From positions 1 to 58,591 of IMG/VR virus record IMGVR_UViG_3300032893_000050: a stretch of 58,591 bases of DNA; one strand, given 5' to 3'. The first letter of the stretch is position 1. Every line of letters begins with the position of its first letter. A program made the position numbers and the translations under genes. Positions 13,237-51,108 of the stretch are shown here, one piece after another. A model generated the notes under the pieces. That model was not told the origin of the DNA and ran no database searches. It saw only the letters and a program-made list of their open reading frames with translations. Origin of the DNA: a virus (taxonomy: Duplodnaviria > Caudoviricetes).

Positions 13237-16200
13237 ATGCCGTACTTGCAGGAGCACGCCGCCCGGCAACATCAGCCCGGTGAATACAAGAGCTTTGCCC
13301 GCAAGGCTTTGCCCGGCATCAAGGGAATTGACGCCATTTACGGCGTCCGCAAGAGCGACGGCAAGACCGAGATTCAGTCGTTCAGATTCGACAAGAAGGT
13401 TTGGTCGCCATCGAAGGCCAGAGCCTGGCTGAAGCAGCACGGCAAGCGCGCCAACGTTGAAGCCGCCAAGTCCACCAAGGCTAGCGTGCCCTCAGATCTA
13501 TCCCCCGTTGCAACGGAGCAATCCTTGTCCACCAAGCAAACAGTCGCAGACGACGTCCGCGAGCAGCTGTCGGACGACTATCCACCGGAGTCTACCCAGT
13601 GGGTCGAGTCCGTGCAGTGGGATGGCCCGAAGTCTGTCTCGCTGGTCGATATCGATTTCGCCAACGAGCAGAAATGGCGTGCGTCGGCTGAGCCCGAGAA
13701 AATTCTCAAGTTCGCCAAGAAGATCCAAAAAGGCAAGCTCAAGCCGATGGTACTCGCCAAGGTGCCCGGGAACGAGAAGCTCGTCGTTCTAGACGGACAT
13801 CACCGCGCGTTGGCCAATCGTGCTCTTGGGCGCCCCGGGCTCGCCTACGTGGCGACGGTGCCGAGCAACAAGGGTCCCTGGATGGAGATGCACTCCAGTC
13901 AGACGCACGGCCCCAGCACGTTTTCGATCGAGACCACCGACGCCATCCTGCTGTCGATCGCAAAAGCGCCCACCGACCTATCTGACAATGTTCTGTCCCA
14001 GCTCTCCAAGGACTACCCCCCCGAGGCAACCGCATGGGTCAAGCAGGCGACTTGGTCTGGGCCTCGGACGATTTCGATGAGCAGCGTCGACCTCTCGCAA
14101 GAACAGCAGTGGCGAGCTGCCTCGGAGCCCAAGAAGGTCGAAAAGATCGCCAAAAAGATCCAGAAGGGGAAGCTCAAGCCGATCATCGCGGTGCAGTCTC
14201 CCGACTCCGACAAGTACACGGTCGTTGACGGGCATCACCATGCGCTTGCCTATCTCGATCTTGGCCGCGATCCAGTCGCGTACGTCGGTCAGGTACCCAG
14301 CAAGCATGGTCCGTGGACGGACATGCACTCCAAACAAATCGAGGATCCGAGCCCGATGTCCCTGCAGCCTGAGCAACAGACTCTATTCGACGTCGGCGTG
14401 GGCGCCGTGCATGTGCCAGGAACCGTCAAAGCAAAGCCACAGAAGCTATACGTGAGTGCGAAGCAGCGCGACAAGATGCCCGCGTCCCAGTTTGGTGATC
14501 CGGCGAATAAGTCCTACCCAATCCACGATAAAGCGCACGCCGACAACGCTGCGGCTCGCCTTGAGCAGCAAAAGGGCTCGATGTCTCCAGGTAAGTACGC
14601 CGCAATCAAACGGCGCATCAAGGCCGCCCAGCGTCGTTTTGGCGAAAAGCCAGGAACCAAGTCGTCGATCGTAAGTCCTTCAGGCTATCGCATTAGCCTG
14701 CGGCATCCCGGCGGTGGCAGCACGGTCATCCAGCACCGCATGAGTGCTCTATCAGGTGAGCAGGCCCTGACGGCCATGTGGCTACCAGATCCGGGTCAGC
14801 TACTGACCTACATTCCGATCGACAAGACCGAAGCGCTTGCCGAGCCACAAGCTGACGAGTCTGGCAACAAGCGCATCTGGGTCCAGATTGCCCGCACGGG
14901 TGCATGGGCGGGACATCCCCAGGGTGCGTTTGCGATCACTCCCTCGACCCTGGACCAGATGGTCCAGAACTTCTACGCGCAGGACTTCGGCCGCATCCAG
15001 TGGGACTTCGACCACGCTTCGGCGATGCCTGCGAACTCGGGCACGTTGCCTCAAATCGGCAAGCCCGCGCAGGGATGGATCTACGCGCTTAGACGCGAGG
15101 GCGACAGGTTGTTTGCACTGACCGAATGGCTGCCGCTTGCCAAGCAGTACATCAAGAATGACCAGTATACAGGCGTAAGCCCAGTCATCAATTGGCACTT
15201 CGCGGATCGGGCCACTGGCAAAGAAGTGGGTCCAACGATCACATCGGTCGCTCTCACGAATCTGCCTTTCATCACCGGCATGGACCGCCCCATCGCGGCC
15301 AGCCTCCACGGTATCGCTCGCAATCAACGAGGACCAATGCCTGTTCCACTCACCGAAATTGACGCGGGTGCTCAGCTGCTCGATACGGGCGAGCCCTATT
15401 GCTATTACTCCGATGCGGATTTGATGTCGCAGCTTAAGCAGGTTTTTGGACTGCACGAGCTAGCGACCGCGCAGCAATGCAAAGCCGCGCTATCGAATCT
15501 GACTGATCATCTCGATGCTGTAGACGGCGACGGTTCGGCGCACCACGAGGGCGTGGATCTCGGCACCTACATCGCGAAAATGCGCGATCTGATCAGTGGC
15601 GCCAAAGGGATGAGCGCCACCGAAGTCCTGCAGTTTCTGGATGGAATTCTCGACGCCTACATGAAGGAAAACGGCATTGCCGATCCGGACGAAGACTTGT
15701 CGCTGAGCGCTGCTGCCCCGCAGATTGACGCGCCCGCGGCCGCAGTCGAACCATCAACGGTCGCCACGGCGGCCTCAACGGAAGGAGCCATCGTGGCTGA
15801 CCCTCAAACACCGCCGGTCGTCGCAACCGATCCGGCAACCGTGACGCCTGCCGGCACGGCAACTCCGCCCGTAACGCCTGCCACCGAGACCGCGGCTAGC
15901 GTTGCATCCACCGAAACCCCAACGCTTGAGCAGTCTGAATTGATTCTGCGCGTCGCGGCCCTGGAGGCCGAGAACACGCAGCTCAAGACGCAGATGCAAA
16001 GTCTATCAGCTTCTGCTGAGACCGAGGAACAGCGGCTCAGTGCTGAAGTTGATTCAGTAATCCGCGTCTACGGTCAGAGCAAGGGTCTCAAGCCTGAGCT
16101 GAAGCCTCATCTGTTGCAGCTCCTCAAAGCGAAGCCCGACGCATTCCGGGCCGCGTATCCGCCGGTTGCGCCAGACCAGGAGCACTTGCTGCTCAATCTC

Positions 16201-16437
16201 ACGGGTGGCGGGGCGTCGAATCCGAACGCACCCGGTGCACGCGTTCCCGCCGATACGGCCCTGGACATCAATCCACCGACTCGGTTGAACGAGCATCAAG
16301 CCATTCTGGCGCTCGGTCTCAACGGTCTAACCGATCAACTCGTGGAAGCGGGGATCCCGTTCTCCATCGCACAAATCAAGGCGGACCAGAAAATCCGCGA
16401 GGCCCGCCAGGCCCTAGAAGCAACCCGACAAGGATAA
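13237..16437 (+). CDS. Prohead protease/scaffold polyprotein (Mu protease I-like) with two ParB-like domains and a DUF6582-like domain
   Basis: WVQIARTG, WDFDH, AQGWI, TGVSP, VALTNLPFI; DGHHR and DGHHH domains; YPIHDKAHADNA; C-terminal coiled coil. Confidence 0.85.
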   Translation: MPYLQEHAARQHQPGEYKSFARKALPGIKGIDAIYGVRKSDGKTEIQSFRFDKKVWSPSKARAWLKQHGKRANVEAAKSTKASVPSDLSPVATEQSLSTKQTVADDVREQLSDDYPPESTQWVESVQWDGPKSVSLVDIDFANEQKWRASAEPEKILKFAKKIQKGKLKPMVLAKVPGNEKLVVLDGHHRALANRALGRPGLAYVATVPSNKGPWMEMHSSQTHGPSTFSIETTDAILLSIAKAPTDLSDNVLSQLSKDYPPEATAWVKQATWSGPRTISMSSVDLSQEQQWRAASEPKKVEKIAKKIQKGKLKPIIAVQSPDSDKYTVVDGHHHALAYLDLGRDPVAYVGQVPSKHGPWTDMHSKQIEDPSPMSLQPEQQTLFDVGVGAVHVPGTVKAKPQKLYVSAKQRDKMPASQFGDPANKSYPIHDKAHADNAAARLEQQKGSMSPGKYAAIKRRIKAAQRRFGEKPGTKSSIVSPSGYRISLRHPGGGSTVIQHRMSALSGEQALTAMWLPDPGQLLTYIPIDKTEALAEPQADESGNKRIWVQIARTGAWAGHPQGAFAITPSTLDQMVQNFYAQDFGRIQWDFDHASAMPANSGTLPQIGKPAQGWIYALRREGDRLFALTEWLPLAKQYIKNDQYTGVSPVINWHFADRATGKEVGPTITSVALTNLPFITGMDRPIAASLHGIARNQRGPMPVPLTEIDAGAQLLDTGEPYCYYSDADLMSQLKQVFGLHELATAQQCKAALSNLTDHLDAVDGDGSAHHEGVDLGTYIAKMRDLISGAKGMSATEVLQFLDGILDAYMKENGIADPDEDLSLSAAAPQIDAPAAAVEPSTVATAASTEGAIVADPQTPPVVATDPATVTPAGTATPPVTPATETAASVASTETPTLEQSELILRVAALEAENTQLKTQMQSLSASAETEEQRLSAEVDSVIRVYGQSKGLKPELKPHLLQLLKAKPDAFRAAYPPVAPDQEHLLLNLTGGGASNPNAPGARVPADTALDINPPTRLNEHQAILALGLNGLTDQLVEAGIPFSIAQIKADQKIREARQALEATRQG

Positions 16438-16926: not shown

Positions 16927-18423
16927 ATGTCTGATGAACACATTGTCCCTCTCTCGTACGCAAATGAGTCTGATGCTCAGGTGCTTTCGGTTCAAGTTGA
17001 CGGTCGCCCTGTTCGTATCGACGTTGTGACCGGTCATCTATTCGACAGATTCGGCAACGACGCTGGCCGTTGGTCTCCCATGGAAGAGACCAGGATCCAA
17101 GATCAGAACACGGCCCTTTCGCGTTCCGCACATCGCGAATCCGCGCACCAATCCGCCCTCGGTATTGCCGGATCATGCGTGAGCCCGCATGGTCACGAAT
17201 ATGTCCAGAGCGTCGCGAGAAGCTACCAAGCTCTTTCGATTGCAAACTCGGAGCAGCGCGCCCAGTATCTGGAAACCGGTACCTACAAGGAAACGGCCGC
17301 AAAAACTCGGATCGATCCCAAGGCTGCCAAGTTCCTGACTGATTGGCGTAACGCTAATCAGACCGAGCAGACTCAGTTGCTTTCAGCAGCGACGCCAGAG
17401 CAAATGAAGCTGCTTGTTGCGGCTGCGTCCCAGGCTCTTGACGTTGGGGTTGCTGACGTTCACGTCGCGCAAGCGCTGCCGAACTTCATCACCGGATACC
17501 ACAACGAGGGTCCCGTAGCGGACGTATATTCGCCTCCGTTGGTTGTGCAACACAAGTCCGATTACTACTGGCAATACAAGAAGGAAGACGCGTTCCAGCG
17601 TGCTCTTCCGCAGCTTGGCGCAGCCGGCGGTGCCCCGTCCGAGATCTTCCCACGATTCGGAAACACGGAGTTCACGGCGATTCAGCGTGCCGTCGCGGCA
17701 TTCGTGCCCACGGAGGTCGAGGCCAACCAAGACGCTCCGCTGCAAATCAAGCTCGGACATGAGAACCGTATGCTGGATGCGGCAATTCTGGAACGAGAAA
17801 TCCGCACCCAGGCGCTGGCTCGCACGTCCGGAAACTGGAACAGCGCAACCACGCTGGCCACCACCTATCAGTGGAACGGCGGCGCCAACAGTGATCCGGT
17901 CAAGGACATCCAGACCATCATCGAGTCCAGCTATGGTGAGCCCAATGCGATGATCATCCCGGGTCACATCTGGCACGATATGGTCCGGAACCCCGCGGTT
18001 CGCTCGTACTACACATACGGCGGGTCGACCCCTGGAATCCTCACGGACCAGCAAATGGCCGCGCTGCTTCGTCTGCCTGAGATTTACGTGGCGCGGATGA
18101 AGTACATCAACACTTCGGGTGCCCTAAAGTACGTATGGGGTGACGACATCACCGTGTTCAGGCGCCCGCTTGCGATGCCGCCCGTGAATCAACGCGACGT
18201 ATGCACGTCCGTGACGTTCCGGTGGGCGATGCAGAACATCAAGATCCCCGACGGGCAAACGTTCTCGCCCGAGATGACGGACGGTCGCGGCTGGGTCATG
18301 CGGCAGTTCTTCAATCAAATTCGCGGTGGTCTCGGCGGAATCCAGATGATTCTGTGCCTGGCTGACGCGGAAGTCCAGACGAGCAAGTATATCGGCAACC
18401 TGCTGATCAACGCTCATCAGTAG
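16927..18423 (+). CDS. Major capsid protein with long N-terminal extension
   Basis: LPNFITGYHN..VAD, QWNGGANSDPVKDI, PNAMII, YVWGD, GNLLINA. Confidence 0.85.
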   Translation: MSDEHIVPLSYANESDAQVLSVQVDGRPVRIDVVTGHLFDRFGNDAGRWSPMEETRIQDQNTALSRSAHRESAHQSALGIAGSCVSPHGHEYVQSVARSYQALSIANSEQRAQYLETGTYKETAAKTRIDPKAAKFLTDWRNANQTEQTQLLSAATPEQMKLLVAAASQALDVGVADVHVAQALPNFITGYHNEGPVADVYSPPLVVQHKSDYYWQYKKEDAFQRALPQLGAAGGAPSEIFPRFGNTEFTAIQRAVAAFVPTEVEANQDAPLQIKLGHENRMLDAAILEREIRTQALARTSGNWNSATTLATTYQWNGGANSDPVKDIQTIIESSYGEPNAMIIPGHIWHDMVRNPAVRSYYTYGGSTPGILTDQQMAALLRLPEIYVARMKYINTSGALKYVWGDDITVFRRPLAMPPVNQRDVCTSVTFRWAMQNIKIPDGQTFSPEMTDGRGWVMRQFFNQIRGGLGGIQMILCLADAEVQTSKYIGNLLINAHQ

Positions 18424-21017: not shown

Positions 21018-21482
21018 ATGGCATTACCTGTCAAGACACTATCGGTTTACTCGAATCCGTGGGCGGCCACGGACCATGAGGGGCGCCCGTCTGGGGCGTT
21101 TCCACACGACGTTTCCTTGCCAGGAATGGCAGGGCGCTACGTCAGCGCGACCATGCAGGCGATCGAAACGCAGCCACAGGTCACCCGAACAATCGGCACC
21201 ATGACTGAGATTCTAAATCATGCTCAACATGACCGCACATGGGACTTCAGCGACCAAGCAGTAACGGTGCCGAACTCGCCCTACTACATGCGCGCCATCA
21301 AGGACGGGACACTGTTTCCTGCCAATGAGCAGACCGCGCAACAGGCTGGACTCAAGCTCCTGAGCCGCGCCGGATACCTGAAGGCCGCGCGAGCCGCCGC
21401 CAAGGCTGAATTCGACGCCATGCACGGCGCCGGCACGTTTGACTCGGTCAACCCACCCGAACCTGCAAAGGCGGACAAATAA
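21018..21482 (+). CDS. DUF2635-like protein preceding sheath
   Basis: VPNSPYYMRAIKDGTL. Confidence 0.55.
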   Translation: MALPVKTLSVYSNPWAATDHEGRPSGAFPHDVSLPGMAGRYVSATMQAIETQPQVTRTIGTMTEILNHAQHDRTWDFSDQAVTVPNSPYYMRAIKDGTLFPANEQTAQQAGLKLLSRAGYLKAARAAAKAEFDAMHGAGTFDSVNPPEPAKADK

Positions 21483-22978
21483 TGACTATCTCGATCGTTG
21501 GCTTCACGAGCGACGACAAGGTACCGGGCGTTTATGGGCAGACCTCATACGGGTCTGGTCGCATTAGCGTCGGCGAATTTCCGGTCAAGTTGCTCATCAC
21601 TGGCAACAAGACCAGCGCTGGGTCCATGACTGCCGACTCGGACATTTCGCAAATCATCAGCGCGGATGACGCCGATGCCAAGCTAGGCGCCGGATCTGAG
21701 GCGGCAATCCAGGCCTACGCGGCCTTGGCAATCGACGGAGTGACCCTGTACGCGGCACCGGTCGCGGAAGCTACTGGCGGCGCCGCTGGAGCGATCACCA
21801 TCCTGATTGGCGGCACTTGGTCCACGACTGGCCAGATTGATTTCAAGCTACATGGGCGCCAGTACTCGGTCGGGATTGCAGCCACCGACTTGGTCGCAGA
21901 CGTGGGCGGGAAGATTCGGGACATCTTCAACTCGAACGCACGCAGCCCCGTTACAGCAACCTTCGACACCCAGACGACCACGCTCACGACAAAGAGCAAA
22001 GGCATTCGGGCCAATCAGTACAACCTTTACTGCGACAAGTCTCGAGTTCCAACGGGTCTTACGGTCACGATTACGGGCGGGACAGCGTCTCACACGGGAG
22101 CGCGGTCACTCACGCCGTTTGCGAGTGGCGCCGGTACGGACTCGGTCACGAACGTTGTGGCTCTCCTGCAGGCGGACGTTTACGACTTCATCGCGTCGGC
22201 CCAGAACGATTCCACGAATGCGGCCGCCTGGAAGACCCATGTTGAGTCCGAGTGCTCAGCGACCATAGGTCACCTCGAGCATGTCATGTTTGCGCTCAAC
22301 GGCACGTCGGCTGGCGCTATCTCGCTGGCTGGCACGACCCTCAATAGCCAGCGCGGTGCCCTCGTGTGGCTGCAGAACGGCGAGAGCCACCCTGCTGCCA
22401 TGGTAGCGACCGCGGCCGCCATCAGGGCCACCCTGAGCCCGCAGAACCCCAACACCAACTACGACAAGATGGTGCTATCAGGCATCGCCCCGCAGTCCTT
22501 CCCATCGGACGTTCCGTCGCACGGGACCATGAAGACGCTGCTGAACAGTGGCGTGACCCCGCTCAAGACGGACGGCTCGAATGTCCGGATCGTCGGCGGC
22601 ATCGGGACCCACTGTCTCAACGGCACATCGCCCGATTACCGAACGTTCACGTGGGGCGACTCGGACACGCCGGATCGCACCCGCAAGGAACTGTCGGCAC
22701 TTTGGGTCGGGGTCGCGCAGAGCAATCCGTGGAACGGAGCAGATCCGCCTCCCGGAACCCTTGCAAACGAAGGCGTCATCACCCCCAACCAGTGGAACGC
22801 CATCGTCCTTGAGGAACTCAAGCGCGAAGAGAAACTCAACTGGATTCAGGACGTCGACACGAACCTGCCGCACAGCGAGTTCGATACGTCTCGCAAGTGC
22901 ATCATGACCGGCGCACCCGTCGTGGTCCGGAGTCAAACCTGGCAGCTAGGCGTTCTCGTCATGCAGACGGCCGCTTAA
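21482..22978 (+). CDS. Contractile tail sheath (Mu gpL-like)
   Basis: KVPGVY, KLGAGS, LLNSGVTPL, ITP...WIQDVD. Confidence 0.92.
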   Translation: MTISIVGFTSDDKVPGVYGQTSYGSGRISVGEFPVKLLITGNKTSAGSMTADSDISQIISADDADAKLGAGSEAAIQAYAALAIDGVTLYAAPVAEATGGAAGAITILIGGTWSTTGQIDFKLHGRQYSVGIAATDLVADVGGKIRDIFNSNARSPVTATFDTQTTTLTTKSKGIRANQYNLYCDKSRVPTGLTVTITGGTASHTGARSLTPFASGAGTDSVTNVVALLQADVYDFIASAQNDSTNAAAWKTHVESECSATIGHLEHVMFALNGTSAGAISLAGTTLNSQRGALVWLQNGESHPAAMVATAAAIRATLSPQNPNTNYDKMVLSGIAPQSFPSDVPSHGTMKTLLNSGVTPLKTDGSNVRIVGGIGTHCLNGTSPDYRTFTWGDSDTPDRTRKELSALWVGVAQSNPWNGADPPPGTLANEGVITPNQWNAIVLEELKREEKLNWIQDVDTNLPHSEFDTSRKCIMTGAPVVVRSQTWQLGVLVMQTAA

Positions 22979-22990
22979 AGGAGCATCAAA

Positions 22991-23368
22991 ATGGCATATC
23001 GTGGCTACTCTGTATACTTGAACGGAACCCGGGTCGTCCAGGCCGAGAATGCATCACTGAAATGGATGTCGAACTCGGAATCGGTCATCACCGATGAGGG
23101 GTACCAGGGCGAAACCGAAGCCCACCAGACCTGCGAGATCACCCTCGACAAGGCGGTTCCCGCTGAGGGAGACCAGGCCCACATCATGCTCCTGGACATG
23201 CTTGCGAACAAGCAAGACCAGAACATATCGATAGGAATTCTCGGCGGCGAAATTCTACAGAGCAAGTTCAAGGTCGTTGACTCGACGTTCACGTCGGACA
23301 TGGCCAAGCAGCTCACCAAAGGTTCAATCACGTTACGCGGCAAAATTCCGAAACGAATCAGCCTGTAA
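22991..23368 (+). CDS. Tail tube protein
   Basis: 125 aa, beta-rich, follows sheath; AAGGAG RBS. Confidence 0.75.
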   Translation: MAYRGYSVYLNGTRVVQAENASLKWMSNSESVITDEGYQGETEAHQTCEITLDKAVPAEGDQAHIMLLDMLANKQDQNISIGILGGEILQSKFKVVDSTFTSDMAKQLTKGSITLRGKIPKRISL

Positions 23369-23385: not shown

Positions 23386-24093
23386 ATGAGTAAGATGCGC
23401 GATCTAATGCGAGGGACGCGCGCAATACATGTCGTAGAGCTTCCGCTCGTCAACGTCCCCAACGCGGGAGCGGAACCGTCGCCAGAGCTCGACGAAGCGC
23501 GCAAGCGCGACGCCGAGGCACTGGGCACAACCGTCGAGCAGCTACCCGTCAAGGCCCGCGTGGGTCTGCGGGTGCTGCTGCCGAGGCAGTGGCTTGACGT
23601 CCAGACTGCCGCTAGGGCGCTGGCAGTCGAGCGCGGAAACCCGAACCCGACCGAGGATGACCCGAACTACAACCTCGGCACGCAGGTCAACACGCTAGCC
23701 CGTGCGTGCGTGGACCCCGACAGTAATCCGTCGGATCCAGACCTATTCTTCGGCGACGGCAAGACCATCGAGTCAGCCGTCAAAGACCTGCTGGATAACG
23801 AGCACCTGACCCGCGATTCGCTCACGTACCTGTGCGACGAGTGGGAGTGGTGGAACGACCGCGTCAATCCGCAAATCAAGAACCTGTCAGACCACGAGAG
23901 GCTGGCCTTCATCGGTCGCATGGTGGAGACGCCAGACATTTTTTTATCATTGCGGCCGGGTGTGCAACGCAGCTTAGCGCATTTTATGGCCGTCCAGCTG
24001 TGGAGCTTGTCGATGCTCAGCTCGGAATCTGGTGGTGGCTCAACCACATCTACACTGAGTGGTCCGAAACCGGAAAGCTCCCTGCTGCAGTGA
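23386..24093 (+). CDS. Tail assembly chaperone (gpG-like)
   Basis: Follows tube gene; contains slippery heptamer. Confidence 0.7.
   Translation: MSKMRDLMRGTRAIHVVELPLVNVPNAGAEPSPELDEARKRDAEALGTTVEQLPVKARVGLRVLLPRQWLDVQTAARALAVERGNPNPTEDDPNYNLGTQVNTLARACVDPDSNPSDPDLFFGDGKTIESAVKDLLDNEHLTRDSLTYLCDEWEWWNDRVNPQIKNLSDHERLAFIGRMVETPDIFLSLRPGVQRSLAHFMAVQLWSLSMLSSESGGGSTTSTLSGPKPESSLLQ
23940..23946 (+). other. Programmed -1 frameshift site T TTT TTA, giving a gpGT-like product ending at 24140
   Basis: In-frame X XXY YYZ heptamer; -1 frame (ORF 23832..24140) is open and protein-like. Confidence 0.7.
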
Positions 24094-24102
24094 AGGCGCG
24101 CA

Positions 24103-24642
24103 ATGGGGACCTACAGGCAACTGACGGCAAAGCGCAATGAGGTAGCCGCACCTCCTGCGCAGCTAAAGATCAACAACGCCGAGATTTGCGGCGACTACAA
24201 GACCATCACGGGCGAGCCGCGCCCAAAAGGCGACCTGATTGTTGGCATTCGAATACCCACGGAAGCAGACGATCATCAATCACGCAAAGCAGCCGAAGAT
24301 AAAGGCGGCGACTCGATCCGAGAATACAACCGACAGCTAGTCATCCTGCACTGCGCGAGAGCCATATGCGATCCTAACGATATCTCCAAGTGCCATCCAG
24401 ACTTTACGATGCCCGATCAGCAGCTACCACTCGTGCTTACGAGTAGCTGTCTCGACAGAATTTTCGACTATGTTGAGCGGCTCAGAATCGAGCAGAGCCC
24501 GGTATTCCCCGAAGCTACAGACCAGGAACTGGCGGAACTGGGCCATCTCATCTGCACGGCGAATTGCCTAGACGAGCTCACGTCGGCGCGCGAGGTTAGG
24601 TTCCGGAAGCTGTGTCGGTTCCTGCTGGATCAGATTCAGTGA
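24103..24642 (+). CDS. Second tail-chaperone-like protein (apparent paralog of 23386..24093)
   Basis: ARAICDPN vs ARACVDPD; LTSSCLDRIFD vs LTRDSLTYLCD. Confidence 0.55.
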   Translation: MGTYRQLTAKRNEVAAPPAQLKINNAEICGDYKTITGEPRPKGDLIVGIRIPTEADDHQSRKAAEDKGGDSIREYNRQLVILHCARAICDPNDISKCHPDFTMPDQQLPLVLTSSCLDRIFDYVERLRIEQSPVFPEATDQELAELGHLICTANCLDELTSAREVRFRKLCRFLLDQIQ

Positions 24643-24674
24643 AGCCCCTGGTGTTAGCACCGGGGGCTTTTGTT
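24642..24674. terminator. Intrinsic terminator between convergent genes
   Basis: aagcccctggtg-ttag-caccgggggctt followed by ttgtt. Confidence 0.8.
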
Positions 24675-24690
24675 CATGTTGCGATTCCAC

Positions 24691-25044
24691 TCATCGCTCA
24701 ACCACAGCGTTCTGAATCATCGGCGTAGAACTCAGGAACGCTCCGGTTAGTCTGGGCGATTCGTGATCATGCTCTGTAATGACGGCGCACGGGACTTCTC
24801 CGCCATCGACGGCTCGTTGCCCATTCGAATCTAGATAGATGGTCCCGACCAAGCTCCCGTCAGGGCTCACTTCTACACTGACAACATCACCAATGAACGT
24901 CGGGTTCTTCCGGTAGAATTCGTAAGGCCCAAGCGTCACCGCAACCGGAGCACTGAAATTGTCGTGAGCTGATCGGATATACTCGGTAGTTATCCGGGTT
25001 CCGTCGTTCACCACGAGTCCTAGCGTGAGTAGTTTGACTTTCAT
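24691..25044 (-). CDS. Degenerate prohead-protease-like protein
   Basis: Colinear motifs with the protease domain of 13237..16437; ATGA overlap. Confidence 0.55.
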   Translation of the reverse strand: MKVKLLTLGLVVNDGTRITTEYIRSAHDNFSAPVAVTLGPYEFYRKNPTFIGDVVSVEVSPDGSLVGTIYLDSNGQRAVDGGEVPCAVITEHDHESPRLTGAFLSSTPMIQNAVVER

Positions 25045-25424
25045 CGTTTCTCCTTCACGTCTTTGACCCATTCAACGATGGGATCACCAAGGCTATCAAA
25101 CCCAGTTATCCAGCCTTGCGCTTTTTGATATTCAAGAACATTCGAAAGAACTTCCGCGACAGGTATAGTCATGGTCGGGCATTCGGATATCTTCCGCTTG
25201 CTCTCGTACGCGATAATGCGTCTTCTGGTCCAAACGTATTCGAGTAGTCGAAGCATGCGACCGAGCCACATGTCTAAGGTTTCCCGGTCGTCTTCCATGA
25301 GTGTCATCTGCACGGCATGGCAATACAACTGGTCCCACCGCGCGATGTCGTCGAACGTTTCGGGTCCGCTCACGAGCAGGCGCGCGTCTTCTGGGTCTAG
25401 TCCGCTGGTGTCGATGTCAATCAT
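25041..25424 (-). CDS. Hypothetical protein; C-terminal half resembles sheath C-terminal helices
   Basis: TLDMW...VLEYQKAQGWITGFD; ATGA overlaps. Confidence 0.5.
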   Translation of the reverse strand: MIDIDTSGLDPEDARLLVSGPETFDDIARWDQLYCHAVQMTLMEDDRETLDMWLGRMLRLLEYVWTRRRIIAYESKRKISECPTMTIPVAEVLSNVLEYQKAQGWITGFDSLGDPIVEWVKDVKEKR

Positions 25425-25597
25425 CTGTCTATCTTTACTTGTGTCGTGTCAATAACATCACAGGTTTCGGGGTCCCACATGTAGCGGTCATGGCTGTCCT
25501 CCAGAGCGATTCCTACTGCTCCCGGAGGAAGACGCGTCGGGTTCAGGTCAATCAGAACAACCTGCTCTTGTTCTGGCGGATCAAAGTTTCCGATCAT
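25421..25597 (-). CDS. 58-aa ORF absent from the ORF track (MIGNFDPPEQ...AVGIALEDS...VKIDR)
   Basis: Manually translated; ATGA overlaps at both ends. Confidence 0.6.
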   Translation of the reverse strand: MIGNFDPPEQEQVVLIDLNPTRLPPGAVGIALEDSHDRYMWDPETCDVIDTTQVKIDR

Positions 25598-25938
25598 AGC
25601 TTAGCAACTCCCTTCAGCGGCCTGCCGTCAACGCAGAATTCGCCAGTTTGCCTGTCCAGTTGGATGCGCGACGGGTCGACCCTAACGTTTCGTTTGCTCA
25701 CGTCTGGATCGGTAATTTCCTCGAACCCAGCAACGCCGAATAGAGCCAAGTCGAGTTCGCATTGTGAACGAACCGATTCAGGAAAGTAGGTAGATGGCTC
25801 CAGCATCTGAACCGCTTTCTTGAGGCAGTCGAGGCAAATCTTGTACGACGCGGGGTCACACTCATGTGCCCCACATGTCCCTATTAGGAGCGGTTTGAAG
25901 TCACATTCGCTGCATTGGCAATCTTTGATTCGTTCCAC
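25594..25938 (-). CDS. Zinc finger fused to portal-like segment
   Basis: CSEC...CLDC; DLALFGVAGFEE...VDPSRI; AAAGGAG RBS. Confidence 0.55.
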   Translation of the reverse strand: MERIKDCQCSECDFKPLLIGTCGAHECDPASYKICLDCLKKAVQMLEPSTYFPESVRSQCELDLALFGVAGFEEITDPDVSKRNVRVDPSRIQLDRQTGEFCVDGRPLKGVAKL

Positions 25939-25941
25939 GTG

Positions 25942-26358
25942 CTACTCTCCTTTGATGTCAACCCCATTGCATCTTCCGCGAAGCCTCCCGATCACGTGAT
26001 ACCAGTCTGTCCCCTCGGGAAGCTTCTTGCACTCGTCATAGGCCCAACTCGATAACAGGAGCGTTGCGCCGCGAATCTCCCAGTGCTGCACGGCGCCGTC
26101 GTCAAGCGTCTTCGGTAACCGATCGACGACTTTGCAGATGAGCGTATCGGGTTGGTACGGCTGATTCTGCATCTCGGCTACAGCTGCCTTGATGTCATCG
26201 ATTGGGTCCGATCTAACGGGCCACGGCGAGGCGGCAGCGAACGTGGACAGCGGAGGAACGGGGTGCAGTGGTTGACCGATTGCGTCAATCAGGCGAACTT
26301 CATCGGACGGTGGAGTGATGATTACGGCCCCCGGTGGCAGCTTCTCGATTCTATGCAT
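25942..26358 (-). CDS. Hypothetical protein with capsid-like SDPxxDI...P.TLI segment
   Basis: WPVRSDPIDDIKAAVAEMQNQPYQPDTLI. Confidence 0.55.
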   Translation of the reverse strand: MHRIEKLPPGAVIITPPSDEVRLIDAIGQPLHPVPPLSTFAAASPWPVRSDPIDDIKAAVAEMQNQPYQPDTLICKVVDRLPKTLDDGAVQHWEIRGATLLLSSWAYDECKKLPEGTDWYHVIGRLRGRCNGVDIKGE

Positions 26359-26674
26359 CCTTCACCACCTTCAGTTTGAACCGACTCGGCTTGTAGAAGC
26401 ATTGCATCTCGGCGTGATTGTAACCGCTGCAGATTGTCACGAATGCGGGTCCTTTCTCGTCCTGCGTGATGCACTGCCCATTGGTTCCGCGGTTTATGTC
26501 CAGATGTTCGCACTGCGCGCATGACTCGAACATCGCCAGGGCCTTGAACAGGCAAGCGGGGCAGAGCTCGACGTAGTCCCCGGTATCCTCGAATTGCATT
26601 ACTCGAGCAACATCTCGATTGCATTCCGAGCACGTAAAGTTTGACGACAGAAGCTCGCGGTTCAGTAGTTTCAT
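26351..26674 (-). CDS. Cys-rich zinc-finger protein
   Basis: CSEC, CPAC, CAQC; ATGA overlap. Confidence 0.6.
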   Translation of the reverse strand: MKLLNRELLSSNFTCSECNRDVARVMQFEDTGDYVELCPACLFKALAMFESCAQCEHLDINRGTNGQCITQDEKGPAFVTICSGYNHAEMQCFYKPSRFKLKVVKDA

Positions 26675-27006
26675 CTCATCTCCGTCCAATGAGTAAGCTT
26701 TGCCTTTGACTCGGCTGCCTTGATAGTCGCGAGTCGGAATTGACCAGCCTTGAACTCGCCTGATCCAATGAACCATCCGCAATTTACCAGCGAAATGTCC
26801 TTGAACTGGACTAGTTCAATCACCGTCATCAGCGGCCCTCCAGACTTGAGCTGGACCACGTCTCCGGGTTGAAACGGCTTCGGTTCGTCGGGAGGCGGAT
26901 CGGGTTGTTCAAACTGCTTAGTTTCATCGGAGGGCGGATCAGGTTGCGGATCGACCTGCGTCCCGTCATCGTGTAGCCATGTGCGACTGATTGGATAGAA
27001 TTTCAT
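26671..27006 (-). CDS. YodC / DUF2158 family protein with Pro-rich duplicated linker
   Basis: FQPGDVVQLKSGGPLMTV...CGWF. Confidence 0.85.
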   Translation of the reverse strand: MKFYPISRTWLHDDGTQVDPQPDPPSDETKQFEQPDPPPDEPKPFQPGDVVQLKSGGPLMTVIELVQFKDISLVNCGWFIGSGEFKAGQFRLATIKAAESKAKLTHWTEMR

Positions 27007-27296
27007 TGTCTGAATCTCCAATTTCTCCGTTGTTTCTTGGATGAATACTTGAAGCTATTGCCGATGCGGTATGCCGTATCGACGACTTCATGCGGTACTA
27101 ATCGCGGACAGAGTTCTGTGACCATTTCGCGTACGATTAACTGAGGATCTTGATCTTGTCCAATGATCCTTTTTGCTTGTCTGCCGTTGAATTCTAGCAA
27201 TAGAACTAAAGATCCACTCGGTCCTCTGAGAGGATCAAAGTATTCTTTCGGTGCGCATCCAGGCAGCAAGCTTTCAGCATAGCTCATCAGATTCAT
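27003..27296 (-). CDS. Hypothetical protein
   Basis: AGAGGA RBS; ATGA overlap with next gene. Confidence 0.55.
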   Translation of the reverse strand: MNLMSYAESLLPGCAPKEYFDPLRGPSGSLVLLLEFNGRQAKRIIGQDQDPQLIVREMVTELCPRLVPHEVVDTAYRIGNSFKYSSKKQRRNWRFRQ

Positions 27297-27437
27297 CCGA
27301 AATTTCCTCTTGCGACAGCGAAAAATCCGTTCATGCTTTCCGTGCAGGTGTTTCCAAGTGCTCCTGCCAGGGCCAGGACGTGTCGCAGCGTCGCTGGCCC
27401 GATTACTTTGACCCGTCAGCCATCCTGAGCGCAACCA

Positions 27438-28091
27438 CTAACCCGATAGCCGAACCCTAGACGGGAGAATGAACGTGCCTTTTGCTATGTCATTGAAAGC
27501 CTTCATGTAGGCAGAGTGTGCTAGTTCAGGCGTTTCAAATATTCCAAGGTATACACTTTTTCCAGCAAAGTTTATTTTTGAAGTCCACTTATTGCGGTGT
27601 CTGACTGCTCCAACGGGAATTCCAGAACGATGTTTAATCTTATTAGTAGAGTTGAGTCTATCCGTGGCAACTCGTATGTTCAGTACACCAAAAATACTAG
27701 AGTTGTTCAGTCCGTTCCCGTCAATATGATCTATTTCTAGATGATCAGGGCAATCAAGAATCATCCTGTGCATGCGAATCGTCTTTTGATGGGACCGCTC
27801 GGAAAATTTGACATTTGAGGCTGCATAGTAGGTCGTGTTTCCACGAATTGCGAACCAGCGGAGCTTGCTAATAAGTGGGTAATGGCAAGTGTCAACCAGG
27901 GCGTACTTTTGCTGAGTCAGTACGATGCATGTGATACCTGGAGCAATTTCCCAATGATCGTTCTTAGGTTTAGAACTGGAACATTCCGGAGAACAGAACC
28001 TACCCCATCCGCGGAGTATTGTGCTAGGTGAATTCTTAGCAAGAAATTCATTGCCACAGAATTCGCAAGGTCGTAATATTTTACCACTCAT
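27438..28091 (-). CDS. HNH homing endonuclease with AP2-like C-terminus
   Basis: MHRMIL, IDHIDGNGLNN, YLGIFETPELAHSAY; AT-rich relative to flanks. Confidence 0.9.
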   Translation of the reverse strand: MSGKILRPCEFCGNEFLAKNSPSTILRGWGRFCSPECSSSKPKNDHWEIAPGITCIVLTQQKYALVDTCHYPLISKLRWFAIRGNTTYYAASNVKFSERSHQKTIRMHRMILDCPDHLEIDHIDGNGLNNSSIFGVLNIRVATDRLNSTNKIKHRSGIPVGAVRHRNKWTSKINFAGKSVYLGIFETPELAHSAYMKAFNDIAKGTFILPSRVRLSG

Positions 28092-28186
28092 TGGATCACT
28101 TCTCCTTTGGGTTGGGCCTCGGACGTGTCAGCGTTACGAGGCCAATTAGTTTGAATCATCAGCCGCTAAAGACAAGGTGAAATCGA

Positions 28187-30391
28187 ATGGCCGCTGATGT
28201 GAAATTGCGTATAGGATGCTCACTGGATAAGTCCCTAGACACCGTATTAGGCGACTTCGCCAAGCGTGTCGACCGGGCCACGCGCGAGATGGCCAAGATG
28301 TCGCAGGCGGCGGAGCGGCTCAAGGTCGAGGCGGTCAAGAACAGCACGCGCCAGCAGCTGACCGAGGAGGAGAAGCTTGCGCGAGAGATTGAGCGACTAG
28401 ACAAGCACCTGACGAGCAGCAAGGCGATCGAGCTGAGACGTCAGATTGATGCAAAGAAGCAGGCACTGCGCGATGAGGTCAATGCACAGCGGCAGTCACA
28501 GCGCGAGCTAGAGCGCTTCGCCTCACGGACCAGCTATCGGGCGACTCGGTTTCTGTTCCCGCGCCCCGAAGGGATGCTGGGTTATGCGGGCCGCGTTGGA
28601 ACTGACCTGTTGCGCGGCGTCGGCGTAGACACAAGCTTTGGCGGCGGGGTTCGGCGGGCAGTAGAACTGCAGCGTCAGGCCCAGATACTTGCCAACAACG
28701 CGTATCAGCCCGGACAAGCTGGTGCTGCTGGTATTCGCGTTTCCGCGAAGGAACTTACCGACGAAGCCCACAAGCATGCCGAAGCGTACGGCATCGAGGG
28801 TGGTGCCGAGACCATTATCGGCGGCCTAACGAAGTTCAACAAGTTGACGGGTGACCTCCGCCAGGGACGTGACATCACTGCCGACATGGTCAAGCTCTCG
28901 GCGGCAACGGGAGCCAACTTCGAAGACGTCATGGGCGCGGCAGCGGTGTTGTCCAAGAAACTCGGAGAAATACCGGACAAGCAGAAAAAAATCTACGAAC
29001 TAATGCGCGGATTTGCCTGGCAGGGCAAGCTAGGCGCGGTTGAGATCAGCGACCTTGCGTCCAGTATGCCGCGTCTGCTCTCGGGCGTCACGCGATTTGC
29101 TGGCGACACCGGAATCAACATAGCCAAGCTGGGTGCATTGGCTCAGATGGCCCGCGGTGGTCCAGCGAGTTCAGCGCGAGAAGCCGCCACTGGCGTCGCC
29201 CGCATGGCTGACATGTTCGTCAAGAAAACGGCCATCAAGAACATGAAAGGAATCGGCCTAACTGAGTCGGATTTGTTCGTCAAAGGCGCTGGTGGAGCTC
29301 GACAAGTAAGAGATCCGTTTTCAATCATCATGCGGGCGCTGGAACTTACCGGCGGCGACCCTGCAAAGATGATGTCAGCGTTCAGGTCCACGATGGGAGC
29401 ACGTCCCATTGAGCGCATGATCGACCTCTATCGACAGGGCGGGGGCCGCGGCGGCGGTGGCATAGCTAACGTTCAGAAAGAAATCAAGATGCTGATGTCC
29501 GGTTCGGGCGTCGGCATGTCGAACGAAGTCGTCGAGGACATGGCGAAGCGCCAGTCCGAGACGATGGCGAACAAGGCCCAGAAGTTCCAGGACAAGCTTG
29601 ACCGCATCACCGAGTCGCTTGCCGAGCGACTGCTGCCCGTACTTGAGCAACTTGCCCCCGACGCTCTCAAGGTAGCCGAGGCGTTCAGCGGAGTCGTCAA
29701 GTGGGCCGCGACCAATCCCGGTGAAGCAATTGTAGGAGCGATAACGCTCAGCATTGCTAGGGCTGGGTTGGAGTCTGGGTTCCGGCGTTCGATCGAGCAG
29801 GCACTTGGGGTGGGGACACCATTTCAGACCGGCGCCATGCAGGCCGGAAGCAGCATGATGAAATTTGCCACGGTTGCCAGCAATGCCATCACGGTAATTG
29901 CTGCGGCGGTGGCCGCCTATGAACTCGGCAAGCAGGGCGCAGAGTCAATCGCTAAGCGAAGCGCCGCTGAAGCCGGAGAGACCGGAAACGTAGTAGATAA
30001 TCTGTCGCTCGCACACGGCGCAGACTTGGCCAAGTCGATCGCCGCCGCGAAAGAGAAGGTCGGCAAAATCAAGGCGCAGCGCGCCAAGCGCGGTGGGCTT
30101 GACGTTGGCCTGAGTGACTGGCTCGAACGCGTTGGCGGTGGTCGTAGCCAAGGTCAAGACCTGGCCTCGACCGAGAACATGATCCGACTCAAGGAACAGG
30201 AACTGTCACGCTACAACGCAACTGGCAGGGCACAGCGAGTCTCGAAGCTCGAAGCGGGCGAGGCTGCCATGCTAGCTGATGCCATTAGCGGCAGGACACT
30301 GAAGGTCCAGGTCATGAACCCTCCGGCTGCTGCTGGAAACCCATCTAAGGTCGATCCGAAAGGTCGCGAGCCTCCTCCGGGGCAGAGGTAG
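28187..30391 (+). CDS. Tail tape measure protein
   Basis: 734 aa, helical, Ala/Gly-rich; GKLGAVEISDLA; upstream of DNA circularisation gene. Confidence 0.88.
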   Translation: MAADVKLRIGCSLDKSLDTVLGDFAKRVDRATREMAKMSQAAERLKVEAVKNSTRQQLTEEEKLAREIERLDKHLTSSKAIELRRQIDAKKQALRDEVNAQRQSQRELERFASRTSYRATRFLFPRPEGMLGYAGRVGTDLLRGVGVDTSFGGGVRRAVELQRQAQILANNAYQPGQAGAAGIRVSAKELTDEAHKHAEAYGIEGGAETIIGGLTKFNKLTGDLRQGRDITADMVKLSAATGANFEDVMGAAAVLSKKLGEIPDKQKKIYELMRGFAWQGKLGAVEISDLASSMPRLLSGVTRFAGDTGINIAKLGALAQMARGGPASSAREAATGVARMADMFVKKTAIKNMKGIGLTESDLFVKGAGGARQVRDPFSIIMRALELTGGDPAKMMSAFRSTMGARPIERMIDLYRQGGGRGGGGIANVQKEIKMLMSGSGVGMSNEVVEDMAKRQSETMANKAQKFQDKLDRITESLAERLLPVLEQLAPDALKVAEAFSGVVKWAATNPGEAIVGAITLSIARAGLESGFRRSIEQALGVGTPFQTGAMQAGSSMMKFATVASNAITVIAAAVAAYELGKQGAESIAKRSAAEAGETGNVVDNLSLAHGADLAKSIAAAKEKVGKIKAQRAKRGGLDVGLSDWLERVGGGRSQGQDLASTENMIRLKEQELSRYNATGRAQRVSKLEAGEAAMLADAISGRTLKVQVMNPPAAAGNPSKVDPKGREPPPGQR

Positions 30392-50887: not shown

Positions 50888-51108
50888 GGCTGCACCGTTT
50901 TGACCGTAATGACTGGTTCGCCGATGAACTCCAAGTCGTTTTGCGTTTTGGCGTCCCATGCCTGGTTATTTAGAGCATCCTTAGCCGATTGTTCTGCCTG
51001 CTTCAGCACCTGTGCCATCGAGCAATCTAGCCCCCAATGATCGTGGCATTTGACGCGAATTGTCAGGACTACTTCTGCCGTGATACTTATAATTCGTTTG
51101 TCACTCAT
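50884..51108 (-). CDS. Hypothetical protein
   Basis: Overlapping start/stop at both ends. Confidence 0.6.
   Translation of the reverse strand: MSDKRIISITAEVVLTIRVKCHDHWGLDCSMAQVLKQAEQSAKDALNNQAWDAKTQNDLEFIGEPVITVKTVQP

What the first reader, a model, noticed from the sequence alone, without database searches (positions are those of the whole stretch)
24691..27296. Antisense operon of apparent virion-protein fragments: candidate decoy or assembly-interference system
Seen: eight small, mostly overlapping (ATGA-coupled) minus-strand ORFs, headed by an HNH gene, sit between the tail chaperones and the tape measure (normally adjacent genes) and end at a strong hairpin. Five consecutive ORFs each carry a segment resembling a different virion protein: major capsid, portal, cement, sheath C-terminus and prohead protease. 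They are diverged, not DNA copies of the resident genes. Known: bacterial immune sensors recognise structural proteins (Avs senses portal and terminase, CapRel senses capsid protein, DSR2 senses tail tube), and satellites and prophages block rival phages with assembly-interfering proteins. Inference: an array of mimics that either titrates host sensors before late genes turn on or poisons assembly of competing phages. The similarities were judged by eye.
Basis: partly seen in the sequence, partly recalled or inferred. Interest (0 to 1): 0.88.

Follow-up and report, generated by a model that had tools for sequence, protein, structure and literature searches.

The report
Antisense phage operon with head-protein look-alikes
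A tightly packed backwards-facing set of nine small genes sits inside a phage's tail genes, and two of them, not five, look like cut-down, inactive versions of head-building proteins, which hints at molecular mimicry that has not been tested.

Summary
The anatomy is real. Nine minus-strand ORFs (24691-28091) lie between the post-tube genes and the tape measure. An HNH endonuclease heads eight small ORFs, five junctions are ATGA overlaps, and a strong bidirectional hairpin closes the set.

The claim of five virion-protein look-alikes holds for two:
- **o5 (25942-26358)** belongs to a small metagenomic family that shares a 30-80-residue segment with the resident-type major capsid protein. hhalign gives E 1.6e-4 and the score is about 11 sd above shuffles. 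PHROGs' only notable hits are major-head families.
- **o9 (24691-25044)** looks like the N-terminal protease domain of P2 GpO / Mu-type prohead proteases. ESM Atlas gives TM 0.74-0.83, and hhalign against GpO is 6 sd above shuffles. It has Phe where the catalytic His should be and has no scaffold half.
- **o8** is not sheath-like. It carries only a 26-residue Mu-protease motif.
- **o6 (portal)** and **o7 (cement)** have no support.

No function was tested. My best reading is an accessory (moron-type) operon that includes two head-protein domains put to a new use. They probably act as non-catalytic binders in capsid assembly or capsid sensing. The five-decoy array is not supported. Genomic context of relatives and RNA evidence could not be obtained.

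The parts
24641..24670 (.). Bidirectional hairpin terminator between the convergent + strand gene 24103-24642 and the minus-strand cassette
   Evidence: 13-bp stem with 8 G-C pairs and a loop of 4. MFE -21.5 kcal/mol, z -2.65, and 2 of 200 shuffles fold as well.
24691..25044 (-). o9, 117 aa: stand-alone pseudo-protease, similar to the N-terminal protease domain of GpO / Mu-type prohead proteases
   Evidence: The ESM Atlas model aligns over 114-117 of 117 residues at TM 0.74-0.83 to clusters carrying Phage_GPO (100% of members), DUF2213 (88%) and Mu-like_Pro (12%). hhalign against a GpO N-domain profile scores 26.4 with E 6.2e-4. Shuffles average 11.7 (sd 2.4, max 21.4 of 200), and the other eight cassette ORFs score 10.5-16.2. 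PHROG head maturation protease hit at E 0.29. Phe43 aligns with catalytic His48 of P2 GpO, and Asp14 with Asp19. No Pfam hit. Only itself found in the 5.8-billion-protein word search.
25041..25424 (-). o8, 127 aa: ORFan whose last 26 residues resemble the hairpin motif that follows the catalytic His in Mu-like proteases
   Evidence: hhalign against a Mu-like_Pro N profile scores 28.4 with E 2.3e-4 (residues 99-124). 200 shuffles average 12.0 (sd 2.4, max 21.5). The score is 25.8 without the resident protease in the profile. No sheath similarity. ESM Atlas gives nothing above 0.85 by features or TM 0.5 by structure. Only itself found in the word search.
25421..25597 (-). o7, 58 aa: ORFan
   Evidence: No Pfam or PHROG family at E<=1. 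No profile similarity. Own frame has the best codon score.
25594..25938 (-). o6, 114 aa (GTG start): Cys-rich protein, probably a zinc ribbon; ORFan
   Evidence: Only itself found. Shares a CxxC...CxxCL-KA-x-M-E motif with o4 (pairwise E 0.035). No portal similarity.
25942..26358 (-). o5, 138 aa: member of a small family (87-223 aa) that shares a segment with residues about 305-385 of the resident-type major capsid protein
   Evidence: Seven homologs at E 2.9e-21 to 2.2e-8. Family against the MCP family by hhalign: probability 50.5%, E 1.6e-4, 81 columns. Column shuffles average 12.2 (sd 2.1, max 21.5 of 120) against an observed 35.6. MCP is the top hit of 29 window proteins. PHROG major-head families are hit by 3 of 8 members. 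Against this: Foldseek finds no capsid and Pfam finds nothing.
26351..26674 (-). o4, 107 aa: Cys-rich protein, probably a zinc ribbon
   Evidence: Weak zinc-ribbon hits only: DZR at E 0.02 and FmdB at E 0.087.
26671..27006 (-). o3, 111 aa: DUF2158 (YodC-like) small protein
   Evidence: Pfam PF09926 at 45.9 bits against a cut-off of 22.3. phrog_3261 at E 7e-12.
27003..27296 (-). o2, 97 aa (or 143 aa from the TTG at 27434): doubtful ORF
   Evidence: No family hit. Own frame is not the best-scoring frame. GC 0.45, like the HNH gene.
27438..28091 (-). o1, 217 aa: HNH (with AP2-like tail) homing-type endonuclease, compositionally foreign
   Evidence: phrog_99 HNH endonuclease at E 2.8e-19. Pfam HNH_3 and AP2 score below their cut-offs. 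GC 0.44, against 0.51-0.58 for o3-o9 and 0.56-0.61 for structural genes.
16927..18423 (+). Resident major capsid protein (comparator for o5)
   Evidence: phrog_1005 at E 1.3e-36. Weak Phage_cap_E hit over residues 309-411.
13237..16437 (+). Resident 1066-aa ParB-like plus Mu-like prohead protease fusion (comparator for o8 and o9)
   Evidence: PF10123 at E 5.9e-23 over nt 14914-16155. phrog_328.

Best explanation
This is an accessory (moron-type) operon transcribed against the late structural genes. It is inserted between the post-tube tail genes and the tape measure and closed by a bidirectional terminator. Its genes are translationally coupled. An HNH homing-type endonuclease with foreign base composition sits at its head and probably arrived separately. 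Two products appear to be head-morphogenesis domains put to a new use. o9 is a stand-alone GpO/Mu-type prohead-protease domain that has lost the catalytic His, probably also the Ser, and the scaffold half. o5 belongs to a small protein family that keeps a segment of the capsid protein's conserved core. o8 carries a short protease-like motif. INFERRED mechanism: these proteins act as non-catalytic binders. A dead protease domain could hold cleavage-site partners such as the capsid N-terminus, scaffold or portal. A capsid segment could occupy a capsid subunit interface or a capsid-recognising surface. They are far diverged from the resident capsid and protease, so the likeliest targets are other phages' procapsid assembly or host proteins that recognise head proteins. 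The remaining genes (DUF2158, two Cys-rich proteins, o7, o2) have no link to virions.
For: Operon anatomy and coding signal. o5 is a real conserved family with 7 homologs. Its similarity to the MCP family holds when both o5 and the resident MCP are left out (score 33.1 over 30-32 columns). It also shows in the tool's own hhalign (E 1.6e-4), in PHROGs and in a HMMER rank test, where 4 of the 7 homologs take ranks 2-5 of 646 sequences behind the resident MCP. For o9: ESM Atlas structure and feature hits to protease/scaffold families, hhalign against GpO about 6 sd above shuffles, and a weak PHROG protease hit. Phe43 aligns with His48 of P2 GpO. GpO residues 1-141 form the protease domain and S107A abolishes activity (PMC7552001, passages). 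o8 motif. Lower GC than the surroundings.
Against: No function, binding or expression was tested. All similarities are remote: hhalign probabilities are 28-50%, and HMMER E-values for o9 (5.9, rank 4 of 646) and o8 (1.1, rank 3) are not significant on their own. o5 itself is not among the top 8 of the MCP HMM. o9 against the Mu-like profile is only 2.2 sd above shuffles. The AF2 model of o9 failed (pLDDT 34), so the fold rests on the ESM Atlas's ESMFold model (pLDDT 0.68). The AF2 model of o5 (pLDDT 67.8) finds no capsid in BFVD or PDB. Pfam sees neither protein. o6, o7, o8 and o9 have no detectable relatives, so selection on them cannot be shown. The alignment around Ser107 has low confidence.
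Confidence: 0.45

Rival explanations
1. This is an ordinary moron island whose products have functions unrelated to virions, such as host takeover, DNA binding by the zinc-ribbon proteins, or unknown small regulators. The capsid-like and protease-like similarities would be old evolutionary relics or partly chance, with no mimicry involved.
For: 7 of 9 ORFs show no virion link. DUF2158 and the Cys-rich proteins are generic small proteins. Structure searches with the o5 model find no capsid. The ESM Atlas lists many stand-alone 110-137-aa viral clusters similar to o9 that have no annotation. All similarities are remote.
Against: Two independent head-protein similarities, plus a third motif, fall within four adjacent genes of one operon. 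Each is well above shuffle controls. Loss of the catalytic His with the fold retained is typical of a domain reused as a binder.
Confidence: 0.3
2. One reading: an array of five different virion-protein mimics (capsid, portal, cement, sheath, protease) that titrates host immune sensors before late genes turn on.
For: Capsid-like and protease-like members exist. Capsid protein and prohead protease are published determinants of CBASS, Thoeris and CapRel responses (10.1101/2023.05.21.541620 abstract; PMC13728456 passages). The orientation matches the minus-strand replication/recombination genes at 49.8-57.6 kb rather than the late genes.
Against: Portal, cement and sheath resemblances are not supported by Pfam, PHROGs, ESM Atlas (o8) or profiles. 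There is no hit to known defence or anti-defence families. Host, sensors and timing are unknown. Literature searches (listings and the passages read) surfaced no described structural-protein decoy, so there is no precedent to lean on.
Confidence: 0.1
3. The ORFs are non-functional debris: fragments of another phage's head genes dragged in by illegitimate recombination or by homing-endonuclease repair, surviving only as open frames.
For: An HNH endonuclease is adjacent. o6-o9 are ORFans. The fragments are shorter than their parent proteins.
Against: o5 has 7 homologs that are themselves small stand-alone proteins with family-specific conserved motifs. The packing is tight and in frame, with 5 ATGA couplings and ribosome-binding sites. 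Own frame is best-scoring for o3-o9. There are no internal stops. The HNH gene's GC (0.44) differs from o3-o9 (0.51-0.58), so they did not arrive as one piece.
Confidence: 0.08

Closest known systems
N-terminal protease domain of P2 GpO and Mu gpI-type prohead proteases (Pfam Phage_GPO PF05929, Mu-like_Pro PF10123)
   Same: o9 matches their predicted fold over nearly its whole length. It aligns to GpO residues about 13-66 with the conserved DG(R/T)xI and GDV motifs.
   Different: o9 is 117 aa and has no scaffold domain; GpO's C-terminal domain at 195-284 is the scaffold (PMC7552001, passages). It has Phe at the catalytic His48 position and no Ser at the aligned Ser107 position. It scores below every Pfam threshold. 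It is encoded antisense within the tail module, in addition to a resident Mu-like protease.
Capsid-assembly hijackers of phage satellites (P4 Sid, SaPI CpmA/B, PLE TcaP, capsid-homolog proteins of PICIs)
   Same: These are small accessory proteins that act on another element's capsid assembly. Some are derived from or mimic scaffold or capsid proteins, which gives the closest precedent for working by head-protein mimicry. Sources: PMC7552001 (passages); PMC6893505 and PMC10945586 (search listings only). The PICI capsid homolog is recalled, not checked here.
   Different: Here the genes sit in a full phage that has its own head module, not in a satellite. No sequence or profile relation to any of those proteins was found or specifically tested. 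No size-redirection evidence exists.
Phage morons and accessory-gene islands next to homing endonucleases
   Same: A compositionally distinct, separately terminated gene set interrupts a conserved structural module, with an HNH endonuclease beside it. A homing endonuclease that promotes amplification of anti-defence loci is described in PMC13096335 (abstract start in a search listing only).
   Different: The content is unusual, with two head-protein-derived small proteins. Nine tightly coupled genes is long for a moron.
Phage triggers of CBASS type I, Thoeris and CapRel (major capsid protein, prohead protease)
   Same: The two protein classes that o5 and o9 resemble are the ones reported as immune determinants (10.1101/2023.05.21.541620, abstract and section headings; PMC13728456, passages).
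   Different: Those are the phage's own full-length structural proteins acting as triggers. No phage-encoded decoy copy turned up in what I read.

Membership tests
GpO / Mu-like prohead protease (PF05929 / PF10123) | Protease-domain fold | tested here: met
   The ESM Atlas model (pLDDT 0.68) gives TM 0.74-0.83 over 114-117 of 117 residues to six clusters, three of which carry protease/scaffold families. This compares predicted models only. My own AF2 model failed.
GpO / Mu-like prohead protease (PF05929 / PF10123) | Score above the Pfam family cut-off | tested here: not met
   o9 has no Pfam hit at E<=1. PF05929 and PF09979 find nothing in the window. PF10123 finds only the resident protease.
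GpO / Mu-like prohead protease (PF05929 / PF10123) | Catalytic His (His48 of P2 GpO) | tested here: not met
   Glu42-Phe43 of o9 align with Glu47-His48 in the confident part of the hhalign alignment. That His48 is catalytic is recalled, not read here.
GpO / Mu-like prohead protease (PF05929 / PF10123) | Catalytic Ser (Ser107 of P2 GpO; S107A is protease-deficient, PMC7552001 passages) | tested here: inconclusive
   In the extended low-confidence alignment, Ser107 faces Gly82 of o9. The alignment there is unreliable.
GpO / Mu-like prohead protease (PF05929 / PF10123) | C-terminal scaffolding domain | tested here: not met
   o9 ends at residue 117, and the aligned part covers only the N-domain.
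HK97-fold major capsid protein (resident type: phrog_1005, weak Phage_cap_E) | Full-length capsid fold | tested here: not met
   o5 is 138 aa and its homologs are 87-223 aa. Foldseek with the AF2 model (pLDDT 67.8) finds no capsid in BFVD or PDB; best E-values are 0.72 and 0.36.
HK97-fold major capsid protein (resident type: phrog_1005, weak Phage_cap_E) | Profile similarity to the family's conserved core | tested here: inconclusive
   hhalign probability 50.5%, E 1.6e-4, 81 columns, about 11 sd above column shuffles. PHROG major-head hits have a best E of 0.0073. No Pfam hit.
Portal protein (o6) | Any profile similarity to portal families | tested here: not met
   No PHROG or Pfam portal hit at E<=1. 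hhalign against a 15-sequence portal profile scores 15.0, which is noise. Not in the top 8 of 646 for the portal HMM.
Tail sheath (o8) | Any similarity to the sheath, especially its C-terminus | tested here: not met
   hhalign scores 17.7, and to sheath columns 89-113, not the C-terminus. Not in the top 8 of the sheath HMM. ESM Atlas finds nothing.
Head decoration / cement protein (o7) | Any similarity to decoration families | tested here: not met
   No Pfam or PHROG family at E<=1. The resident decoration protein is not among the top 4 hhalign hits. No family profile of decoration proteins was built.
HNH homing endonuclease (o1) | HNH nuclease family profile | tested here: met
   phrog_99 at E 2.8e-19, plus 10 further PHROGs annotated HNH endonuclease (11 of the 15 families listed). 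Pfam HNH_3 (16.6 bits) and AP2 (15.2 bits) are below their cut-offs.
DUF2158 (o3) | Pfam score above cut-off | tested here: met
   45.9 bits against a cut-off of 22.3.
Known anti-phage defence systems (PADLOC) | Match to any model | tested here: not met
   8 of 9 ORFs have no hit at E<=0.1. o6 hits PDC-M16B at E 0.029 and 10.6 bits.

The most novel reading that the evidence does not exclude
A phage carries an early-oriented operon whose products include a catalytically dead prohead-protease domain and a stand-alone capsid-segment protein. These act as molecular mimics of head proteins. They might soak up bacterial sensors that recognise capsid protein or prohead protease (CBASS type I, Thoeris, CapRel-like systems), or act as dominant-negative poisons of rival phages' procapsid assembly and maturation. 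Either would be a class of structural-protein decoy not described so far.
Probability: 0.15. Interest if true: 0.85.

Novelty: new variant of a known kind. Interest (0 to 1): 0.55.

Why it matters
Capsid proteins and prohead proteases have recently emerged as what several bacterial immune systems detect. Satellites are known to subvert capsid assembly with scaffold-like or capsid-like proteins. If a bona fide phage keeps cut-down, inactive copies of exactly these two proteins in a separately transcribed operon, that would point to either a decoy counter-defence or an assembly-level weapon against competing phages. Both ideas can be tested with simple expression experiments. Even without a known function, the o5 family and the stand-alone pseudo-protease proteins are unannotated small-protein families that deserve a name. 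The five-fold decoy array, which drove the original high score, is not there.

Tried and rejected
**DNA and protein searches of cultured phages.** These found nothing useful for the region, sheath, o5, o9, P0004 or P0007. One search gave only 4 Gordonia phage records at E 0.8-0.9.

**Context of relatives.** The search for related loci in viral contigs found nothing with g179, o5, o9, A2, hub or tube. With the sheath it found 3 contigs (41-48% identity), and all end at or just after the sheath, so the junction cannot be seen. Two metagenome-contig scans found nothing. Genome contigs gave one locus, L002, which I reject as spurious: only the 'LPEGVD' end matches, and it lies in a high-GC chromosomal housekeeping context. 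A distant prophage (L070) has sheath, then 122-aa, 92-aa and 541-aa genes on one strand with no antisense cassette. Its tube and tape measure are not alignable to the window's, so it is weak support for 'normally adjacent'. tblastn of o1-o9 against 87 fetched loci (376 kb) gave no hit at E<=0.01.

**Sequence searches of solved structures.** PDB sequence searches with o5, o9, the A1 profile and the MCP gave only chance hits such as designed helical repeats.

**Row dropped.** P0010 (547 aa, E 9.6e-6) was left out of A1 because its match is a fourfold internal repeat unrelated to the conserved core.

**Structure and complex predictions.**
- The AF2 single-sequence model of o9 was unusable (pLDDT 34), so it was not sent to Foldseek.
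- Complex prediction of MCP 171-498 with o5 30-130 gave no verdict (score 0.00, controls not run). This is no evidence either way.

**Expression.** The look-up of sequencing runs listed one DNA run, which may be the source sample, and no RNA holder.

**Other libraries.** Rfam had no family in 24000-28600. NCBIfam and PADLOC gave nothing meaningful.

**Corrected recollection.** I had recalled the GpO catalytic Ser as lying in the 'TDxPAS' motif. Fetching P2 showed that Ser107 lies in 'YTSMEI', so I dropped the earlier idea.

**Closed or unseen sources.** Supplements of the papers were not seen.


Full report
**What the window is.** The window is an IMG/VR virus record of 58.6 kb that CheckV estimates to be 63% complete. 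Its + strand carries a myovirus-type late module:
- small and large terminase, portal, and a decoration-like protein
- a 1066-aa fusion of ParB-like domains with a Mu-like prohead protease (PF10123, E 5.9e-23)
- major capsid protein (MCP) at 16927-18423
- sheath at 21482-22978 and tube at 22991-23368
- two unnamed genes at 23386-24093 and 24103-24642
- tape measure at 28187-30391, then baseplate genes

The phage is far from cultured phages. Neither the region nor the sheath protein finds anything in 50,697 phage records.

**The observation.** Between 24642 and 28187 the coding strand flips. Nine minus-strand ORFs fill 95.8% of 24691-28091.
- o1 (HNH) is followed by eight small ORFs.
- Five of the eight junctions are ATGA overlaps, one is an 8-nt overlap and one is a 3-nt gap. 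Shine-Dalgarno-like purine runs precede o1, o3, o6 and o9.
- For 8 of 9 ORFs the annotated frame has the best codon-usage score of the six frames. o2 is the exception.
- GC is 0.44-0.45 for o1 and o2, 0.51-0.58 for o3-o9, and 0.56-0.61 for neighbouring structural genes. The HNH gene (with o2) and the remaining genes therefore look like two separate acquisitions.
- A 13-bp hairpin at 24641-24670 lies between the convergent stops. Its MFE is -21.5 kcal/mol, and 2 of 200 shuffles fold as well.

That the two upstream genes are tail chaperones rests on position only, because they match no family.

**Database-wide family searches.**
- Only o1 and o3 have solid assignments. o1 hits the HNH endonuclease family phrog_99 (E 2.8e-19). 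o3 hits DUF2158 (45.9 bits against a cut-off of 22.3).
- Among 38,880 PHROGs, the only hits at E<=1 for o5 and o9 are 'major head protein' (E 0.0073) and 'head maturation protease' (E 0.29).
- o6, o7 and o8 hit no virion family.
- BLASTP against 29 resident proteins gives nothing below E 0.1.
- PADLOC and NCBIfam give nothing meaningful.

**o5 and the capsid protein.**
- An exhaustive HMMER search of 1.84 billion representatives found 8 proteins besides o5 at E<=1e-3. Seven of them (87-223 aa, E 2.9e-21 to 2.2e-8) share a conserved core and were aligned with o5 as A1. The eighth, a repeat protein, was dropped.
- All seven are metagenomic singletons on contigs of 1-15 kb (30 kb for the second member of one cluster, P0013), and their context could not be read.
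- A1 against the resident MCP scores 28.4 by hhalign over 74 columns (o5 35-115 against MCP 305-385). MCP is the best of 29 window proteins. 150 shuffled MCPs average 13.6 (sd 2.3, max 19.5).
- I built an MCP family profile from 15-18 homologs found in sampled genomes. Against it, A1 gives probability 50.5%, E 1.6e-4 and 81 columns. Column-shuffled A1 averages 12.2 (sd 2.1, max 21.5 of 120) against an observed 35.6.
- With both o5 and the resident MCP removed, the score is still 33.1 over the first 30-32 columns, which hold a W...SDP(I/V)xxI motif.
- In a HMMER rank test, the MCP HMM built without the resident places 4 of the 7 o5 homologs at ranks 2-5 of 646 sequences, behind the resident MCP. 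o5 itself is not in the top 8.
- Against this: no Pfam hit for any member. The AF2 model (pLDDT 67.8; core about 80-90) finds no capsid in BFVD or PDB.

I conclude that the o5 family probably shares ancestry, or at least a conserved motif block, with the core of this MCP family. It is an independently conserved small protein, not a capsid protein.

**o9 and the prohead protease.**
- o9 has no sequence relatives in the word-indexed 5.8-billion-protein search.
- The ESM Atlas holds its model (pLDDT 0.68, pTM 0.64). That model aligns over 114-117 of 117 residues at TM 0.74-0.83 to six clusters, among them Phage_GPO (100% of members), DUF2213 (88%) and Mu-like_Pro (12%). The feature search adds Mu-like_Pro and Peptidase_S80/S77 clusters, as well as many unannotated 110-137-aa viral clusters.
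- My AF2 single-sequence model failed, so I tested the lead by profiles.
- Against a Mu-like protease N-domain profile (17 sequences), o9 scores 17.7. That is only 2.2 sd above shuffles.
- Against a GpO N-domain profile (15 sequences), o9 scores 26.4 (E 6.2e-4, residues 12-60). 200 shuffles average 11.7 (sd 2.4, max 21.4), and the other eight cassette ORFs score 10.5-16.2.
- For scale, the GpO and Mu profiles, which are true distant relatives, score 34.4 against each other.
- With P2 GpO as reference, Asp14 of o9 faces Asp19 and Phe43 faces His48. In a low-confidence stretch, Gly82 faces Ser107.
- GpO residues 1-141 form the protease, S107A abolishes activity, and residues 195-284 form the scaffold (PMC7552001, passages).

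o9 is therefore best read as a stand-alone, catalytically dead protease domain without a scaffold half. Pfam models do not detect it.

**The other three claims.**
- o8 is an ORFan and has no ESM Atlas support for any fold. It shows no similarity to a 17-sequence sheath profile beyond noise, and what there is does not fall at the C-terminus.
- Its last 26 residues do match the hairpin motif that follows the catalytic His in Mu-like proteases. The score is 28.4 (E 2.3e-4). 200 shuffles average 12.0 (sd 2.4, max 21.5), and the score is 25.8 without the resident protease in the profile. This is a short motif found in a targeted comparison (32 ORF-by-profile tests), so I treat it as a lead.
- o6 is an ORFan and is Cys-rich. 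It shares a zinc-ribbon-like motif with o4 and shows no portal similarity.
- o7 (58 aa) matches nothing.

The 'five different virion proteins' therefore reduce to two, plus one motif, and all three point to head morphogenesis.

**Mechanism.** Nothing functional could be tested.
- Shown: a separately terminated, translationally coupled operon, compositionally distinct and antisense to the late genes. It lies in the same orientation as the replication/recombination genes at 49.8-57.6 kb.
- Inferred: o5 and o9 act as non-enzymatic binders that exploit surfaces inherited from capsid and protease. Both are far diverged from the resident proteins, and o9 is closer to GpO than to the resident Mu-like enzyme. 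The targets are therefore more likely foreign phages' procapsids or host proteins that recognise head proteins than the phage's own assembly.
- Published work makes both targets plausible. Escape from type I CBASS maps to prohead protease and capsid (10.1101/2023.05.21.541620, abstract). Capsid proteins trigger CapRel and Thoeris (PMC13728456, passages). Satellites redirect capsids with dedicated proteins (PMC7552001, passages; PMC6893505 and PMC10945586, listings only).
- Literature searches 64, 85 and 86 surfaced no description of a phage-encoded structural-protein decoy, judging by the listings and the passages I read.

**Limits.**
- No RNA run holds the region.
- Lifestyle is unknown. No integrase or repressor was seen among the ORFs I scanned, and the record is incomplete.

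**Verdict.** I rate this a new variant of a known kind: an accessory operon that contains head-protein domains put to a new use. Interest is moderate.

Noticed in passing
window 13237-16437 (+): A 1066-aa protein fuses ParB-like domains (PHROG ParB hits within residues 95-344) to a Mu-like prohead protease (PF10123, E 5.9e-23, nt 14914-16155). This is an unusual head-module fusion.
   Followed up: partly
window 16927-18423 (+): The major capsid protein (498 aa) has an N-terminal extension of about 170-180 residues compared with its 307-332-aa homologs in sampled genomes. This may be a fused delta/scaffold domain.
   Followed up: no
window 5570-6412 (-) and 50072-50959 (-): Two DUF5131 paralogs (E 2.5e-75 and 1.3e-67), both on the minus strand. 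The first forms another small antisense, lower-GC island just before the terminase genes.
   Followed up: no
window 26351-26674 and 25594-25938 (-): o4 and o6 share a CxxC ... CxxCL-KA-x-M-(F/L)-E motif (pairwise E 0.035). They may be diverged paralogous zinc-ribbon proteins.
   Followed up: partly
window 27003-28091 (-): The HNH gene and o2 have GC 0.44-0.45, about 8-14 points below the rest of the cassette and 12-17 below the structural genes. This suggests a later, separate insertion of the endonuclease.
   Followed up: partly
window 28051-28080 (+): A sigma-70-like site (TTGCCA, 17-18 nt spacer, TAATAT) lies inside the start of the HNH gene and faces the tape-measure gene. The late operon would need to restart here after the hairpin at 24641-24670. 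The number of such sites in the region does not exceed that in shuffles.
   Followed up: no
window 11482-12540 (+): A glycosyltransferase-like gene (phrog_13126, E 2.8e-15) sits inside the head module between the decoration-like protein and the protease fusion.
   Followed up: no
L086, L087, L088 (IMG/VR contigs): Three viral contigs encode sheaths 41-48% identical to the window's. They are the only relatives found, and all break off at or just after the sheath gene.
   Followed up: partly
L002 9935-10243: The only genome contigs 'relative' of the o5 family is a 102-aa frame in a Mesorhizobium MAG, set among housekeeping genes. Only the LPEGVD end matches, so I judge it spurious.
   Followed up: yes
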